Below are positions 13,701 through 20,035 of a DNA stretch of 26,048 nt, one piece after another (position 1 is the first letter of the stretch; every line of letters begins with the position of its first letter). Made by a program: the position numbers and the translations under genes. The notes below the pieces were generated by a model. The model saw only the letters and a list, made by a program, of their open reading frames with translations. It was not told where the DNA came from and did no database searches. This DNA comes from Candidatus Uhrbacteria bacterium RIFOXYB12_FULL_58_10 (GTDB taxonomy: Bacteria; Patescibacteriota; Patescibacteriia; 2-12-FULL-57-11), in assembly GCA_943359495.1 (NCBI GenBank), contig CALRHY010000001.1, positions 1 through 26,048 on the forward strand, read 5' to 3'.

Positions 13701-14819
13701 ATGGGAACAACGGACACAATCAAGGTCACTCTGTTCGTGGACGGACAGAAGCGGCGCACAGGACTCATCGCTCGGCACAACCTCGACGCGGTGGTGCTGG
13801 TCCTCGAGACCGCGCATGAGTACCGCGACGATGACATCACTCCTCCGACGGTTCGGATCATGATCCAGACCGAAAAGGTGGTGGTCATCGACGCACACGT
13901 CAACGGCGACGTCGCGGGGACGATGCGCCTCCTCCTGCCCGAGTGGCTCGTCACCGTCGAGGACAAGCCTACCGCGCCGCGCCCGGATCCTGAGGTCGTC
14001 AGGCAGGAGCGGGAGCAGCAGCTCTGGAGGTTAGCGACGGAGATGTACAGGAACGGCTTCGGACAGAAGCCGAACGTGCACATCTGCAGCGTCGAGCGCT
14101 GCCCGGAGCACACGGTGCCAGCAGACCAGCAAATGGGACCCAGAGCACTGCAGCCGGCGATCGCCGTCGACAAGAGCGGGAAAGTCTGGAACATCTGCCA
14201 AGAACACTTCCAGGCTGGACGCCACATCGCCGCGCAGTGGTCGACCTGGGAACAGGCCGCCGAGCAGGCGCGAAGGACAAACGACGTAGGTGCACTTGGG
14301 CGTGCCAACGAAGTTCTGACCGCCATCGACAGGCTCGGCGTGCAGATCGACGTCTTCGCGAGCAAGAAGGCTCAAGAGGCGGCGAAGCCGAAGGGGGCCA
14401 TCGCAGCAGCGCTGACGAAACGCGCCGCGAGCAAACCGTCTGGTAGCGGACCTGCACAGCAGGCCGCCAAACCGGATCCGGATCCCGAGCTCACCACGGA
14501 GAAAGCCGTAGAGCACTTGGCGGAGCAGCTGCGTCGGACGCGGCACGGCGACCTCCTCATGGGTAACCCCCTGGAGATGGACGCGACCGCGTGGAAGAAG
14601 CTCTCCGATCACATGGCGGCGCAACCGTCGGCTGCCGTGGGCAAGCAAGGGCAGCCGCAACGGCGAGCGGAGCGGGCCGTCGCTTTCCTGACCGCAGTGC
14701 GCGGTGAGAAGAGCACGGCGGACGAGGAGGTCCAGTCGGTGCGCTTCGGAGACGAGGCCAAACCGACAAGCGACGACGAGACGGTGAGCGGCGCACCGCA
14801 AGGCGCCACCATCAACTGA
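13701..14819 (+). CDS. Hypothetical 372-aa protein with a putative Cys/His Zn-binding module and an Ala/Lys/Pro-rich linker
   Basis: Long ORF with GAGG 5 nt before the ATG and strongly G/C-ending codons. Motifs CSVERCPEH and ICQEH. A strong hairpin (14893-14942) follows. No family recognised. Confidence 0.8.
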   Translation: MGTTDTIKVTLFVDGQKRRTGLIARHNLDAVVLVLETAHEYRDDDITPPTVRIMIQTEKVVVIDAHVNGDVAGTMRLLLPEWLVTVEDKPTAPRPDPEVVRQEREQQLWRLATEMYRNGFGQKPNVHICSVERCPEHTVPADQQMGPRALQPAIAVDKSGKVWNICQEHFQAGRHIAAQWSTWEQAAEQARRTNDVGALGRANEVLTAIDRLGVQIDVFASKKAQEAAKPKGAIAAALTKRAASKPSGSGPAQQAAKPDPDPELTTEKAVEHLAEQLRRTRHGDLLMGNPLEMDATAWKKLSDHMAAQPSAAVGKQGQPQRRAERAVAFLTAVRGEKSTADEEVQSVRFGDEAKPTSDDETVSGAPQGATIN

Positions 14820-14892
14820 CCTCCGAAAACGGGTTCCCGTGTGGCCCGGCGAGACGACAGTCGCGAGACTGACGACTCCAAACCACCGGAAT

Positions 14893-14950
14893 TGGTCGGA
14901 TTCGAAGCGCGTGCATCACGCAGCGCCAACCGAATCCGACCAGTCTTTTC
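14893..14950 (+). terminator. Hairpin/terminator downstream of the 372-aa ORF
   Basis: Perfect 12-bp stem TGGTCGGATTCG/CGAATCCGACCA followed by GTCTTTT. Confidence 0.55.
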
Positions 14951-15047
14951 CACATCAGGAAGCGTTTCGTGGTGTGAAAAGGAAAATCTTTATTTCTGTC
15001 GATCTTAGCAAAAGAACTATGGGCAACGGCCTCAAAATGCCAAACCT

Positions 15048-15076
15048 TTGACAAGCCTTGAACGGCGCAGTACTTT
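15048..15076 (+). promoter_or_regulatory. sigma70-type promoter P2
   Basis: TTGACA-N17-TACTTT. Confidence 0.6.
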
Positions 15077-15186
15077 AGTGTCCGTTCTGACAAACGAACT
15101 GCTCTCTTTTTTACTTCATGACCTTGGTCGTGGTGTAGGGAAGACGAGCAGTGTGTTTTTTGAACATAACCGAGACGGAGGATCGA

Positions 15187-15408
15187 ATGGCGATTTTCAG
15201 GATGGAACGGCGTGGTACTCGATGTGGACGGAAAGAGCGCCCACCTCTGACGATGGAGCAACGTACGGAACGCGAGTTCCAGCACTGGTGCAACATCCTC
15301 GACACCATCAAGACCGGCGGCCAAGAACGCGGCAATGGAAGGCCGCGTTTGCGATCGAGCCACCGCAGGGTCACCGACTTCAACAGCAACGCACGTACCG
15401 CCGCCTGA
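15187..15408 (+). CDS. Small Arg-rich hypothetical protein (73 aa)
   Basis: GGAGG 5 nt before ATG 15187, downstream of P2; MAIFRMERRGTRCGRKERPPLTMEQRTEREFQHWCNILDTIKTGG... No family recognised. Confidence 0.45.
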   Translation: MAIFRMERRGTRCGRKERPPLTMEQRTEREFQHWCNILDTIKTGGQERGNGRPRLRSSHRRVTDFNSNARTAA

Positions 15409-15547
15409 CCACTCCACACCTTCACGCGCCCGGGAGAGCCGCGTGAAAAAAATCAAACCGTCTGCGCAGATCGTGCGCGACGGCTAGCTCTCCTCGTTTT
15501 TTGGACACAGAAATGTTCTGTTTCTAAAAAACGATTCGATGACTATC

Positions 15548-15575
15548 TTGACAAATAGAAAAAAGTTGGTATTAT
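15548..15575 (+). promoter_or_regulatory. sigma70-type promoter P3
   Basis: TTGACA-N16-TATTAT with an extended -10 TG. Confidence 0.72.
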
Positions 15576-15580
15576 AAAAG

Positions 15581-15738
15581 GACTCGCGAGAGAACTCTGC
15601 GAAGCAGTGTACGCATTCTGCCGCATCGGAAAGTGGAAGCACTCTCTCTCCTCGCGCCGTGTAGCAATACGTGGCGTCGCTTCCCCCTTTCGGTTCGAAG
15701 AAACGCGCGTGACGCCGCTTTGCAGATTTCTCCCGCGA
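15581..15738 (+). ncRNA. Small rod-shaped RNA, 6S (SsrS)-like candidate
   Basis: Has its own promoter and terminator and no credible ORF. 22-bp closing stem 15584-15605/15717-15738 (two mismatches, one G-U), irregular central region, inner stem 15629-40/15679-91, apical 9-bp stem with a GCAA tetraloop. Confidence 0.65.
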
Positions 15739-15741
15739 ATA

Positions 15742-15776
15742 AAAACTCCCCTCCGATACACTCGGAGGGGAGTTTT
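15742..15776. terminator. Bidirectional intrinsic terminator between the small RNA and recA
   Basis: Perfect 15-bp inverted repeat AAAACTCCCCTCCGA-tacac-TCGGAGGGGAGTTTT. Confidence 0.88.
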
Positions 15777-15835
15777 GTATTTGCGACCAACGTCGCACGT
15801 ACTCCCTTATGCCATACCTATCTACTCACCCCTCA

Positions 15836-16912
15836 CTACGTCTCAAACTCTTCCGGTGGTGGTTCATCCATGTCGATCGGCGGAACGACATTGTCCGGAT
15901 TATCTCTAAAGGCAACGGCAGCAAATGTTGCCGTACGGATTTCGGCAAGTAATTCTGGGTGTTCTTTGAGGTAGGTCTTCGATGCTTCGCGCCCGACCCC
16001 CAATTTGATCTCGCCAAAACTGTAGGTGTTTCCATTCTTCTTCACCGTTCCTTCAAGGACGCCGGTGTCGAGCATGTCGCCCGGAATGGAAATCCCTTCG
16101 TTGTACATGATGTCGAATTCGGTGGCCCGGAATGGCGGCGCAACTTTATTTTTTACTACCTTTGCTTTCACGCGATTGCCGATAATTTTATCGCCCAACT
16201 TAATCTGCGCAGCACGGCGGACTTCGATGCGCAGCGAGCTGTAAAACTTGAGCGCGGTTCCACCGGTGGTCGTTTCTGGATTGCCGAAAACGATCCCGAT
16301 CTTCATACGTGTCTGGTTGATGAAGATAACGGTCGTCTTTGATTTCGAGACGATGGCCGTGAGCTTACGCAGTGCCTGACTCATGAGACGCGCATGCAAC
16401 CCCATGTGCTGATCGCCCATCTCGCCTTCAATTTCTGCCCGAGGAGTAAGGGCAGCAACAGAGTCGATGACAATCAAGTCAACCGCGTTTGAACGGACCA
16501 GCGTTTCAACAATGTCCAGTGCCTGCTCGCCCGTATCTGGTTGCGAGATCAACAATTCATCAACTTTCACGCCGATCTTTTTTGCGTAATCTGGATCTAA
16601 AGCGTGTTCTGCGTCAACAAACGCAGCAATGCCGTGCATCTTTTGAATTTCGGCAACCACATGCTGGGCGAGTGTGGTCTTTCCTGAAGATTCTGGGCCG
16701 AAAATTTCGATGATGCGTCCACGCGGCACACCACCGACGCCGAGCGCGATGTCGAGCGAAAGACAACCAGTCGGAATAGATTCGACTTGCATCTTCCCTG
16801 CCTCGCCGAGGCGCATGATCGAGCCGTCGCCAAATTTTTCGCGGATCTGGTTAATCGCTTCGTTCACGGCATTGTTCTTCGCTCCTTGTTCGTCGTCTTT
16901 CTTTTTTGCCAT
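15836..16912 (-). CDS. recA: Recombinase RecA
   Basis: Start moved to ATG 16912 (MAKKKDDE...; 358 aa). GPESSGKTT Walker [30 protein letters not shown] and KNKVAPPF. Confidence 0.98.
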
Positions 16913-17069
16913 ACAAAAAACACACACGTGATTGATCGCGCACGCTCCCTGTAGAGCAAGTCCTCCCGCTTCCCGACACGGCGCACGTGCTCGTACACAG
17001 TTCGTCTTCCAAAAAGGAATGAGGAACTGTATCGAGCGCGAACGTCGTATGCTATTGCGTCTGTTGCTC

Positions 17070-17783
17070 CTAGCGAACTGCGGCAACCGCAGCCGCTCCA
17101 CCGTCACCGAGAGCGGCCGAGCCATTCCACAGCACGCGGCGATAGAATACCTGCTCGTCGCTATGTACTTTCTTCGCAGCTATCTTAATGATATTCAGAC
17201 CGCGGTGCAAATTGACCGCTTCGGAAAATTTTCCATCCGCGTTCAAATAGACCAATTCGCCATTAATACGCAATTCTGTGCCGCGTTCGGTCAGCCCCGC
17301 TACAGAGACCGTTGGTATGGCACTCAAGGAACCATCTGCCGGCGTCGAAAGCGCGAGTGACGGTAGCGCGGTCATACCGTGGATCTCCCAACCAAGCACT
17401 CCGAGCGCAAGAATGGCCGATCCTGCCACCAAGACAGCAGAGACAACACGCGGCGCAACCATGAACGAACGACGCAAGGCGCGCGCTTGTGGCAGCGTGT
17501 TTGTTCGGAGACCAATCACTTGCTCCTGCGCCGAGGCATGGAGCGCCAAAAGTTCTTCTGGGTGTACATGAAGCACACGAGCGATCGAGCGCAGAAAAAA
17601 CTGCTGGTACAAAAAGTCCGGTAACTGTGCAGGCATGTCTTCCTCAAATGCACGAAGGTGCTTTTCTTGCACATGCGCCTCGCCTGCAAGCACAGCAATA
17701 CTTTTTCCTGCAGCTTCCCGTTGTTGCCGCAAAAAATTCCCCAATGTCGTCTCAAGAATCGGTTGTTCCACCCAATCACTCAT
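17070..17783 (-). CDS. RodZ-like protein: N-terminal HTH, one TM helix, C-terminal Ig-like beta domain
   Basis: [20 protein letters not shown]...FLRSIARVL resembles the RodZ HTH. Hydrophobic segment [20 protein letters not shown]; C-terminal V.G.TE.GTEL.ING..V....DG.FS..V.L..G.N.I pattern. The ftsK-rodZ-recA neighbourhood fits. Confidence 0.75.
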
Positions 17784-17794
17784 ACGAAGAGCTA

Positions 17795-20035
17795 TTACAT
17801 CTGCGGTTCGTCAGAACCATCATACACGTCCTCGCCCTCTGCCTCCGCATCAGGCAACATGTCAAGTCCCTCACGAGAAATCAAGAGTTCGCGCGGTTTT
17901 GCACCATCACCCGGACCAATAATCCCCTTTTCTTCGAGCAAGTCCAGAAGCCGTGCGGCCCGCGCATACCCCACCTTCAAACGCCGCTGCAACAAACTGG
18001 CCGATGCTTTGCCGGCACGAAGAATAGTATCTTGGGCTTCAATCAATAGAGGATCGGAATCGCCATCATCACGAAACGCGCTGGCAGAACCAGGAGCATT
18101 CTTGCCGCGCTCGGTGACTTCGCTTAAATAATTCGGCGGACCACTGGTGTCTTTCACATGGTCCACCACTTTGCGGATTTCCTCGTCGGTGACGAGACAA
18201 CCTTGAATACGCTTTGGCTTGGACAACTCCGCGTTCACAAACAACATGTCGCCGCGGCCAAGCAATTTTTCTGCGCCCAACGAATCAAGAATAGTCCGCG
18301 AATCCGTCCCCGAGGCAACCGAGAAAGCGATACGCGAGGTAATGTTTGCCTTGATCAATCCAGTAATGACATCAACGGACGGACGCTGTGTTGCTAAAAT
18401 AAGATGGATTCCGACCGCGCGGGCCATCTGTGCCAGGCGGATGATCGAACTTTCCACTTCGGATGCCGCTGCAACCATCAAATCTGCCAACTCATCGATG
18501 ACAAGCAAGAGATACGGCAGTTTTTCTGGGCTCGCGTTGTTGTAACTCGCAATGTCACGGAAGCCAGCCTTCGAAAGTAAATCGAATCGCCGTTCCATTT
18601 CGCCAATCGACCACTTCAACGCATTCACCGTCTTTGGAACGTCGGTAATCACCGGGGTGATCAAATGCGGGATGCCATTGTAAACCTGAAGTTCCACACG
18701 CTTTGGATCGACCATGATAAACCGCAAATCATCCGGACCGTTTTGGTACAAGAGCGACAAAATGATGGTGTTCAAACAGACTGATTTGCCCGAACCAGTT
18801 GCACCAGCCACAAGCAAGTGCGGCATTTTTGCCACGTTCACTGTCCAAGATTTACCAGAAACATCTTTGCCCAGCGCGACCTCAAGACCATTTTTGCGTC
18901 CCCGGAATTCTGGTGATTCCAACACCTCACGAAGACCGACGATTGAGACGGTTGTATTTGGCACTTCGATTCCTACCAATGACTTTCCTGGGATTGGTGC
19001 TTCGATACGAATCGGATGCGCAGCGAGCGACAAGGCGAGATCATTTGAAAGACCAGTGATACGCGAAAGTTTAATCCCTTCGGCTGGGCGCAGGCTGTAT
19101 TGGGTCACGGTCGGCCCGACAGAAATATCACCCATTTCCACCGGAATACCGAACTGTTCAAAAGTGCGGCGAATGCGCTCCATGTTTGCTTGAATATCGC
19201 CTGCCGCCGGCTTCCCTGTACGAACGGAAAGCAATTCGAGTGGTACTTCAATGTGCTGGCGCGGATGTTTAACCAAGGTTTCCGGTTCCGCAGGTTCGAC
19301 GGGTCCTGTTGGCATAGACTGCTGTTCACCAAAAATCTGCGGCTGTTTTGGAATGGCATTTTCCATTGGCCGTGCGGCGAAGCGAGCTTTTTCAACAAAG
19401 GCGTCTTCGTTGTCGCCATCGTCTTTGCCAGAGAGCCCATGAATAACCGGAGCATTAGCTGCTGCCGGACCACCCGAAAGCCGGAACAGCCAGCGTAATG
19501 GTGCGCCGAAGAATGATGTCGTCTCAGCCATGCGATGCAAAGACGTATTGAAAGTCAGCAAGCAAGAAACAACTGCAAGTGCGAGTAACACCACAAGCCC
19601 CGCCCAAAAACCCATCACCGAAAGTAGTGGCGCAGCGAAAAACATCCCGAGGTAGCCACCACCTTGGTTCCAAGGAGCCATCATCGGAACGAATTGTTGG
19701 GTGCACAATTCAATCGTTCCGTTGATAACAAGGGCGAGAAGGACAAGCCCGAGCGAACCAGCAGTTCGCAAAGCGAATCGTTCGGGAAGCAATGTCTTCG
19801 TGGCAAAGAAAGCTAAAAGAATTGGCAAGATGATACGGTCCCAACCGAGTAGCCCAGCAAGACCGCGGTCCAGGAGCACACCAAACGCACCCGCAAGACC
19901 AAAGACCGACAGCGCGCTGATCGCCGCCATGGCATACAGAAAAACAACCAAAATCCCACGCTGCGTCTCCGGGGAAATGGAGAAGTCTGGCAAACGCGGT
20001 TCGGCAGCGGCATTTCCTCGTCGTTTTTTAGACAT
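17795..20035 (-). CDS. ftsK: DNA translocase FtsK/SpoIIIE
   Basis: N-terminal TM helices, PHLLVAGATGSGKSV Walker A, VIDELADLM, ATQRPSVDVITG and the gamma domain SASLLQRRLKVGYARAARL. Confidence 0.97.
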   Translation of the reverse strand: MSKKRRGNAAAEPRLPDFSISPETQRGILVVFLYAMAAISALSVFGLAGAFGVLLDRGLAGLLGWDRIILPILLAFFATKTLLPERFALRTAGSLGLVLLALVINGTIELCTQQFVPMMAPWNQGGGYLGMFFAAPLLSVMGFWAGLVVLLALAVVSCLLTFNTSLHRMAETTSFFGAPLRWLFRLSGGPAAANAPVIHGLSGKDDGDNEDAFVEKARFAARPMENAIPKQPQIFGEQQSMPTGPVEPAEPETLVKHPRQHIEVPLELLSVRTGKPAAGDIQANMERIRRTFEQFGIPVEMGDISVGPTVTQYSLRPAEGIKLSRITGLSNDLALSLAAHPIRIEAPIPGKSLVGIEVPNTTVSIVGLREVLESPEFRGRKNGLEVALGKDVSGKSWTVNVAKMPHLLVAGATGSGKSVCLNTIILSLLYQNGPDDLRFIMVDPKRVELQVYNGIPHLITPVITDVPKTVNALKWSIGEMERRFDLLSKAGFRDIASYNNASPEKLPYLLLVIDELADLMVAAASEVESSIIRLAQMARAVGIHLILATQRPSVDVITGLIKANITSRIAFSVASGTDSRTILDSLGAEKLLGRGDMLFVNAELSKPKRIQGCLVTDEEIRKVVDHVKDTSGPPNYLSEVTERGKNAPGSASAFRDDGDSDPLLIEAQDTILRAGKASASLLQRRLKVGYARAARLLDLLEEKGIIGPGDGAKPRELLISREGLDMLPDAEAEGEDVYDGSDEPQM

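What the first reader, a model, noticed from the sequence alone, without database searches (positions are those of the whole stretch)
15581..15738. Stand-alone ~158-nt rod-like RNA, a 6S-like candidate near the RNA polymerase operon
Seen: complete transcription unit (P3 promoter, 15-bp terminator) with a 22-bp closing stem, irregular centre, inner stem and GNRA-capped apical stem. Known: 6S RNA is a long irregular hairpin that mimics an open promoter and binds sigma70 holoenzyme; compact ~160-nt versions exist (Aquifex). It lacks the SRP, tmRNA and RNase P signatures. Inference: a divergent 6S RNA or a new sRNA. The centre could partly pair (TACGC/GCGTG), so the 6S call is not certain.
Basis: partly seen in the sequence, partly recalled or inferred. 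Interest (0 to 1): 0.65.

Follow-up and report, generated by a model that had tools for sequence, protein, structure and literature searches.

The report
New rod-shaped small RNA beside rpoB
This is a real gene for a rod-shaped non-coding RNA of about 160 nt, found widely in uncultivated Patescibacteria; it is not a recognisable 6S RNA, and its invariant pyrimidine strand matches conserved purine boxes in neighbouring non-coding transcripts, so base pairing is its most likely mode of action.

Summary
Window 15581-15738 (+) is a stand-alone small-RNA gene with a near-consensus promoter (15548-15575), a rod-like fold (-71 kcal/mol, z -4.9) and a terminator hairpin shared with convergent recA.

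The genome is a 0.68-Mb Uhrbacteria-like Patescibacteria MAG. All 7 genomes of its family carry one copy. Homologues occur in at least 8 further families of the class and in one genome of another class. The helices covary: 23 of 50 pairs change on both sides, 0/500 shuffles.

Two elements hardly change: a CUGCG/CGCAG helix and a single-stranded UCUCUCUCCUC tract. The tract is predicted unpaired in 14 of 15 homologues.

No Rfam family matches, including 6S and SRP RNA. The architecture is a one-sided strand or a three-way junction, not a two-sided bubble, so it does not fit 6S. No Ffh or FtsY was found, Ro is in 1 of 7 genomes and CsrA in 0 of 7.

New here: the exact complement GAGGAGAGAG lies on the sRNA's strand in the non-coding rpoB-sRNA gap. 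It occurs 13 times in 10 of 13 genomes and never on the opposite strand. It also forms a few extended Shine-Dalgarno sites.

My best reading, at about 50%, is a stable base-pairing RNA, either regulator or sponge. This scan found the family twice before on other DNA, with the partner unknown.

The parts
15548..15575 (+). sigma-70-type promoter of the sRNA (TTGACA, 16 nt, TG-n-TATTAT)
   Evidence: 11/12 match with extended -10. Equivalent promoters precede the homologues.
15581..15738 (+). rod-shaped small RNA ('CU-RNA'), about 158 nt
   Evidence: MFE -71.1, z -4.9; covariation; homologues; a 151-nt metatranscriptome contig covers 15596-15744 at 94% identity.
15597..15603 (+). 5' half of the invariant helix (CUGCGAA)
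   Evidence: Invariant in all 7 family members. The CUGCG/CGCAG core is kept in most class-level homologues.
15719..15725 (+). 3' half of the invariant helix (UUUGCAG)
   Evidence: it pairs with 15597-15603, including a conserved G-U pair.
15641..15653 (+). invariant single-stranded pyrimidine tract ACUCUCUCUCCUC (candidate seed, anti-SD-like)
   Evidence: The core UCUCUCUCCU is identical in all 15 aligned homologues. Mean P(unpaired) is 0.72-1.00 in 14 of 15, against 0.20-0.30 for the rest of the RNA. The 12-mer AUCUCUCUCCUC occurs in 64/200 class genomes, almost always once, while the reversed control occurs in about 11.
15655..15676 (+). variable apical hairpin, 9 bp, GCAA tetraloop
   Evidence: the helix covaries and its loop sequences are not conserved among homologues.
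15745..15777 (.). bidirectional terminator hairpin (12 bp, loop UACAC, U-tract on both strands), shared with recA
   Evidence: Sequence. Terminator-type Rfam models align to it. Homologues have terminators or a U-run directly after the closing stem.
11992..12000 (+). GA box 1 (GAGGAGAGA), complement of the pyrimidine tract, in the non-coding rpoB-sRNA gap
   Evidence: Duplex with the CU region is -25.7 kcal/mol, against -11.5 +/- 4.4 for random 40-mers.
12794..12803 (+). GA box 2 (AGGAGAGAGA)
   Evidence: apart from the sRNA gene itself, each 10-mer complement has its only genomic copy in the gap. This is the copy of AGGAGAGAGA. Duplex -20.7 kcal/mol.
13269..13278 (+). GA box 3 (GAGGAGAGAG)
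   Evidence: Duplex -22.9 kcal/mol. The same box is present in the gaps of 10 of 13 genomes.

Best explanation
The gene makes a stable, rod-shaped non-coding RNA. Its job is to display one invariant single-stranded pyrimidine tract, UCUCUCUCCUC, on top of a long closing helix. I propose that the tract base-pairs with GAGGAGAGAG boxes. One to three such boxes sit in non-coding transcripts ('GA-RNAs') encoded between rpoB and the sRNA gene. The same box forms the extended Shine-Dalgarno of a few mRNAs. Pairing would cover the GGAGG core, so the RNA would act as an anti-SD-like repressor, or as the sponge or partner of the GA-RNAs. Shown here: the gene, its structure, its conservation, the exposure of the tract, and the conserved, strand-specific and locus-specific complement. 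Inferred: that the two RNAs meet, the direction of control (who regulates whom), and the output. The invariant CUGCG/CGCAG helix probably binds a protein. That is inference only.
For: There is a promoter, a significant fold and a terminator. The gene is single copy and present in 7/7 family genomes. It occurs in 8 further class genomes from 7 other families (plus family f13, later confirmed in G018) and in one genome of another class. Eight of ten sampled 12-mer hits in model-negative genomes are also rods with the tract unpaired. Covariation: 90.8% of cells are paired, against 77% in shuffles and 35-47% when partners are slid, and 23 pairs change on both sides. The tract is unpaired in the ensembles of 14/15 homologues. 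Partner evidence: GAGGAGAGAG occurs 13 times on the sRNA's strand in 43 kb of rpoB-sRNA gaps from 13 genomes (10 of 13), and 0 times on the other strand. The 209 same-composition permutations average 0.25. In the near-closed G005 genome, both exact GGAGGAGAGAG copies lie in that gap. In G000, each 10-mer complement has its only genomic copy in the gap. In G018, G063, G085 and G118, at least one of the 2-4 genomic copies lies in the gap. In lower-GC relatives the boxes lie about 40 nt after consensus promoters and are followed by a hairpin and a terminator. Other copies sit directly before start codons, two of the three with an upstream promoter. The 16S 3' end is canonical, so the box contains a true SD core. 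A metatranscriptome contig covers only the sRNA. Its 5 listed differences from the window sit at wobble-compatible or GNRA-preserving positions, and the tract is unchanged.
Against: No experiment or strand-specific expression data exists. The single RNA-run contig could be DNA carry-over. The tract and the box are both invariant, so there is no compensatory change across the intermolecular duplex. Co-conservation could therefore reflect a shared protein or ribosome ligand. Predicted accessibility of the three boxes in this window is only 0.15-0.43. Genome-wide, the box is not more frequent than chance, so any regulon is small. A long closing stem that pairs the 5' and 3' ends is typical of stable RNP-type RNAs such as 6S, SRP and Y RNA, not of classical seed-first sRNAs. 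In some genomes the sRNA is not near rpoB, and no box was seen within 8 kb.
Confidence: 0.5

Rival explanations
1. It is a 6S-like RNA. The rod binds RNA polymerase holoenzyme as an open-promoter mimic, and the pyrimidine strand is the template for a purine-rich product RNA.
For: It has the right size, paired ends, its own promoter and terminator, and is single copy. No canonical 6S was found in 41 class genomes, so the niche is open. The gene is linked to rpoB. A template of pyrimidines would give a purine-started product. That product would have the sequence of the GA boxes.
Against: No 6S model matches, even at E<=10. The unpaired region is one-sided or a three-way junction. The distal 'upstream duplex' is a variable short hairpin or absent. 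A 10-nt tract that is invariant across families with 41-70% GC is unlike 6S, which is conserved in shape more than in sequence (established knowledge). The tract has conserved complements elsewhere.
Confidence: 0.12
2. It is the RNA subunit or scaffold of an unknown ribonucleoprotein. The invariant CUGCG/CGCAG helix and the pyrimidine strand are protein-binding sites. The GA boxes resemble the complement for another reason, for example because they are strong ribosome-binding sites.
For: A base-paired element with invariant sequence usually means protein or tertiary recognition. The closing stem that seals both ends suggests a long-lived RNP. The family is wide and single copy.
Against: No conserved protein gene accompanies it. 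Ro is present in 1/7 genomes, CsrA in 0/7, and Ffh/FtsY were not found. The locus-specific and strand-specific placement of the exact complement is hard to explain without pairing.
Confidence: 0.2
3. It is a highly divergent SRP (4.5S) RNA.
For: It is a hairpin-shaped stable RNA. No SRP RNA was detected in 41 class genomes.
Against: The apical loops and adjacent internal loops are not conserved. No Ffh M domain, SRP54 GTPase or TIGR00959 match was found in the genomes tested, while SecY and RNase P RNA are found.
Confidence: 0.02

Closest known systems
6S RNA (SsrS; Rfam RF00013, 6S-Flavo RF01685)
   Same: Length of about 160-200 nt, ends paired into a long irregular rod, its own promoter and terminator, one copy per genome, and an unpaired 5'-side strand in the upper half.
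   Different: There is no model match. The strand is one-sided or sits in a three-way junction, not in a two-sided central bubble. There is no long terminal helix. The single strand is invariant in sequence and has conserved complements in neighbouring transcripts.
C/U-rich-seed base-pairing sRNAs of Gram-positive bacteria (RsaE/RoxS, RNAIII, LhrC) that occlude Shine-Dalgarno sequences
   Same: An exposed, conserved pyrimidine-rich motif complementary to GGAG-type ribosome-binding sites. No Hfq-type module is evident.
   Different: There is no sequence or model homology. There is one tract rather than several. The scaffold is a sealed rod rather than a 5' seed plus terminator. The best-conserved partners are non-coding neighbours, not mRNAs.
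sRNA-sponge pairs
   Same: Two non-coding RNAs have a conserved perfect complement of 10-11 nt, and one of them is present in several tandem copies.
   Different: Both partners are encoded side by side at a fixed housekeeping locus (rpoB-ftsK) across the families where synteny was checked. Which one is the regulator is unknown.
Y RNA / Ro RNP
   Same: The stem formed by the 5' and 3' ends carries a conserved helical sequence, and the upper single-stranded region is pyrimidine-rich.
   Different: A TROVE/Ro protein is present in only 1 of 7 family genomes, and no Y RNA model matches.

Membership tests
6S RNA | Match to the curated covariance models (RF00013, RF01685) | tested here: not met
   (E<=10, 500-nt slice): no 6S family listed. 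RF00013 finds 0/41 genomes of the class.
6S RNA | A large two-sided central bubble flanked by a long closing stem and a long terminal stem (open-promoter mimic) | tested here: not met
   a 13-nt strand faces 0-1 nt, or lies in a three-way junction. The distal hairpins are 6-13 bp, variable, or absent on one side.
6S RNA | About 150-200 nt, paired ends, independent transcription unit, single copy | tested here: met
6S RNA | Binds sigma-70-type holoenzyme and templates product RNA | not testable with these tools
   This needs EMSA or pull-down and in vitro transcription. No small-RNA libraries are available.
SRP RNA (4.5S) | Match to RF00169 or RF01854, with a conserved helix-8 tetraloop and internal loops | tested here: not met
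   Apical loops differ among homologues.
SRP RNA (4.5S) | Ffh partner encoded in the genome | tested here: not met
   PF02978 0/5, PF00448 0/5 and TIGR00959 0/5. No DTAGR-type ORF in G000. SecY control 5/5.
Y RNA | Ro (TROVE) protein encoded, usually adjacent | tested here: not met
   1/7 family genomes, and not adjacent.
Seed-pairing regulatory sRNA (functional class) | A conserved, accessible single-stranded seed | tested here: met
   P(unpaired) 0.72-1.00 in 14/15 homologues; the 10-nt core is invariant.
Seed-pairing regulatory sRNA (functional class) | Conserved complementary sites in other transcripts | tested here: met
Seed-pairing regulatory sRNA (functional class) | Pairing changes expression or stability of the partner | not testable with these tools
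   This needs reporter or in vitro assays with compensatory mutants.
Csr/Rsm sponge system (for the GA boxes) | CsrA/RsmA protein encoded | tested here: not met
   0/7 in the family and 1/31 among relatives.

The most novel reading that the evidence does not exclude
The rod-shaped CU-RNA and the tandem GA-RNAs form a previously undescribed two-RNA housekeeping module. It sits beside rpoB in the genomes where synteny was checked and recurs across several families of Patescibacteria. It could control ribosome or RNA-polymerase access in cells that appear to lack Hfq-type, CsrA-type and even SRP-type machinery. One form would be a 6S-like decoy whose release RNA is genomically encoded (the GA box) instead of being synthesised on the decoy.
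Probability: 0.2. Interest if true: 0.85.

Novelty: new variant of a known kind. Interest (0 to 1): 0.62.

Why it matters
Patescibacteria (CPR) are a large share of bacterial diversity, have genomes of about 1 Mb, and almost nothing is known about their RNA regulators. This RNA is one of the few conserved non-coding genes in these genomes besides the universal ones, and no curated RNA family covers it. Earlier follow-ups in this scan left its invariant strand without a partner. A conserved, locus-linked complement now gives a concrete, cheap test: two synthetic RNAs, a gel shift, and compensatory mutants or a heterologous reporter. If pairing holds, it would be the first riboregulatory circuit defined for this phylum. 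It would also supply a marker pair for annotating thousands of MAGs.

Tried and rejected
Known RNA families: nothing at gathering thresholds for the whole window except a tRNA, nothing relevant at E<=10 for 15400-15900, and nothing at E<=0.5 for 10600-15600.

SRP RNA: rejected.

Y RNA: rejected, Ro in 1/7 genomes.

Csr-type sponge: rejected, no CsrA.

Repeat or mobile element: rejected, single copy; only the terminator has look-alikes.

Riboswitch or leader: rejected, because the unit ends in a terminator facing convergent recA.

Protein coding: the overlapping ORFs have no Pfam match. Conservation follows base pairs. tblastx and blastp across the gaps find no shared protein.

General SD titration: GA-type 8-mers and 9-mers are not enriched genome-wide in G000, and the 9-mers outside the gap are not at start codons.

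Intermolecular covariation: not obtainable, because both motifs are invariant.

Expression: only one RNA run holds part of the sRNA, and the DNA runs are lake-water metagenomes.

Literature searches found no description of this RNA or of SRP loss in the phylum.

Full report
OBSERVATION. A near-consensus promoter lies at 15548-15575: TTGACA, a 16-nt spacer and TGgTATTAT. It precedes a 158-nt sequence that folds into one long irregular hairpin. MFE is -71.1 kcal/mol, and dinucleotide shuffles give -50.9 +/- 4.1, so z = -4.9. The fold has a closing stem of about 22 bp, further helices, a 13-nt one-sided strand (ACUCUCUCUCCUC, 15641-15653) and a 9-bp apical stem with a GCAA loop. A 12-bp G+C-rich hairpin with flanking U/A tracts (15745-15777) follows. 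It also serves convergent recA (15836-17125). The simple terminator scan missed it, but Rfam terminator-type models align to it. The element is single copy.

ORGANISM AND CONTEXT. The window is contig 1 of a 679-kb, 84-contig, 78.6%-complete genome. Record titles of close relatives name Candidatus Uhrbacteria and Patescibacteria. Source runs are lake-water metagenomes. The local gene order is rpoC-rpoB (minus strand), a 4.9-kb gap, the sRNA, then recA, an HTH protein and ftsK.

In relatives the order is rpoB, a 2.7-5 kb gap, the sRNA, ftsK, HTH, recA. This holds both in the family and in other families of the class. In this genome the ftsK-HTH-recA block is inverted.

HOMOLOGUES AND STRUCTURE. 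BLAST found two relatives. A three-sequence covariance model then found exactly one copy in each of the six other genomes of the family. All have a promoter and a terminator. A seven-sequence model, R2, matched 8 further genomes of the class: 7 other families plus f13. It also matched one genome of another class, a compact version of about 115 nt.

The exact 12-mer AUCUCUCUCCUC occurs in 64 of 200 class genomes, nearly always once, while the reversed control occurs in about 11. I sampled ten of those hits from model-negative genomes. Eight are rods with the tract unpaired. The model search therefore under-counts the family.

On the seven-sequence alignment, 90.8% of cells pair. Column shuffles give 77%, and sliding the partners gives 35-47%. 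Twenty-three of 50 pairs change on both sides, and 0/500 shuffles reach that.

Two elements hardly change:
- the helix CUGCGAA/UUUGCAG (15597-15603 with 15719-25), whose CUGCG/CGCAG core persists in most class-level homologues;
- the pyrimidine tract.

The tract is flanked by variable hairpins on its 5' side, its 3' side or both. The common architecture is a long sealed rod carrying a three-way junction, or a bulge, that displays the tract. In the partition functions of 15 homologues, the tract has mean P(unpaired) of 0.72-1.00 in 14 and 0.49 in one. The rest of each RNA has 0.20-0.30.

WHAT IT IS NOT.

6S RNA. No model matches, even at E<=10, and RF00013 finds nothing in 41 class genomes. The unpaired region is not a two-sided bubble between two long helices.

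SRP RNA. RF00169 and RF01854 find nothing. The apical loops are not conserved. The genomes tested show no Ffh M domain, no SRP54-type GTPase and no TIGR00959 match. RNase P RNA (5/5) and SecY (5/5, E about 1e-105) are found.

Y RNA. Ro is present in 1/7 genomes.

Csr-type system. CsrA is present in 0/7 genomes.

It is not a repeat, not a leader and not coding.

THE PARTNER. A first-stage note on this window (e1-5290789) pointed out that the tract's complement recurs upstream. I tested that note.

In G000, apart from the sRNA gene itself, each 10-mer complement has its only genomic copy in the gap. GAGGAGAGAG lies at 13269 and AGGAGAGAGA at 12794, both on the + strand. A 9-mer lies at 11992.

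The same holds in relatives. The non-coding gap between rpoB and the sRNA carries one to three boxes on the sRNA's strand in G002-G006, G063, G118, G056, G085 and G018. Over 43 kb of gaps from 13 genomes, GAGGAGAGAG occurs 13 times on that strand, in 10 of 13 genomes, and never on the other strand. The 209 other permutations of the same letters average 0.25. The only other frequent permutation is the one-base shift of the same site.

Whole-genome counts agree. In G005, which is near-closed, both exact GGAGGAGAGAG copies are in the gap. In G004 two of three are. In G018, G063, G085 and G118, at least one of the 2-4 genomic copies is in the gap.

Predicted duplexes in this window are -21 to -26 kcal/mol, against -11.5 +/- 4.4 for random 40-mers.

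In lower-GC relatives the boxes belong to discrete units. Each has a consensus promoter, an A/U-rich leader of about 40 nt, the box, a hairpin and a terminator, and units are sometimes duplicated in tandem. In the high-GC family of this window the units sit in an ORF-poor stretch of 2-3 kb. That stretch has one conserved nucleotide island (window about 11760-12132) and no protein-level conservation.

Outside the gap, three of the four other exact 11-mers are extended Shine-Dalgarno sequences directly before start codons. They precede a 353-aa orphan, a 188-aa PAS-domain protein and a 188-aa orphan. The first two have an upstream promoter, and the fourth 11-mer lies inside a coding sequence. 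The 16S 3' end is canonical. The box therefore contains a real SD core, and pairing with the sRNA would cover it.

EXPRESSION. One wastewater metatranscriptome holds a 151-nt contig equal to 15596-15744 at 94% identity, and nothing from the flanks. Its 5 listed differences from the window are wobble-compatible or keep the GNRA loop, and the tract is unchanged. This is weak support, since DNA carry-over is not excluded.

MECHANISM. Best reading, about 0.5: a stable base-pairing RNA whose exposed anti-SD-like tract pairs with the GA boxes of neighbouring GA-RNAs and of a few mRNAs, acting as repressor or as sponge/partner. Rivals: an RNP scaffold with protein-bound motifs (0.2), a 6S-like polymerase decoy (0.12), SRP RNA (0.02).

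The main weaknesses are these:
- there are no compensatory changes across the intermolecular duplex, because both motifs are invariant;
- predicted box accessibility is moderate;
- the sealed-rod scaffold is unusual for seed sRNAs;
- some homologues lie away from rpoB.

NOVELTY. The family is absent from Rfam 15, and I found no paper on it. This scan found it twice before on other DNA (e1-4334476 and e1-1280212). Both follow-ups concluded that it is a new rod-shaped RNA, not demonstrably 6S, with partner unknown. I reached the same verdict independently. I add the conserved partner, the class-wide prevalence estimate and the three-way-junction architecture.

Noticed in passing
whole genome G000 and relatives (no window coordinates): No trace of the SRP pathway was found. 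SRP RNA models hit 0/41 class genomes. PF02978, PF00448 and TIGR00959 hit 0/5, including near-closed genomes. In 120 phylum genomes that are at least 90% complete, PF00448 gives only P-loop-level matches (best E 4e-6). Controls work: RNase P RNA 5/5 and SecY 5/5. This is either a real loss or a blind spot of the collection. I found no paper stating it.
   Followed up: partly
window 10660-13700 (+): An ORF-poor stretch of about 3 kb between rpoB and the orphan gene has a strong promoter at 11252-11280, three GA boxes, and a nucleotide island (about 11760-12132) conserved in G002, G003, G005 and G006. It has no protein-level conservation. In lower-GC relatives the equivalent region resolves into discrete 'GA-RNA' units of about 150-200 nt, each with its own promoter and terminator.
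   Followed up: partly
window 13701-14819 (+): A 372-aa orphan ORF lies in a local GC peak (0.64 against about 0.52). It has no Pfam match and no tblastn match in the syntenic gaps of six family genomes, so it looks like a lineage-specific insertion into the gap.
   Followed up: partly
window 15836-20035: The recA-HTH-ftsK block is inverted here compared with the relatives where synteny was checked. In those, ftsK rather than recA abuts the sRNA.
   Followed up: yes
L036 / G001 contig C55: The public record CAZQBA010000055.1 is titled 'uncultured Gammaproteobacteria bacterium'. It carries the same Patescibacteria sRNA-ftsK-HTH-recA locus, so the label looks wrong.
   Followed up: no
L072 743-1817; L081 86-663; L082 3396-3975 (minus): Three genes in relatives have the full GGAGGAGAGAG box as an extended Shine-Dalgarno, two of them with an upstream consensus-like promoter. 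They encode a 353-aa orphan, a 188-aa PAS-domain protein and a 188-aa orphan, and are candidate mRNA targets of the sRNA.
   Followed up: partly
G005:C2:517652-518488: A TROVE (Ro-like) protein is present in only one of the seven family genomes.
   Followed up: no
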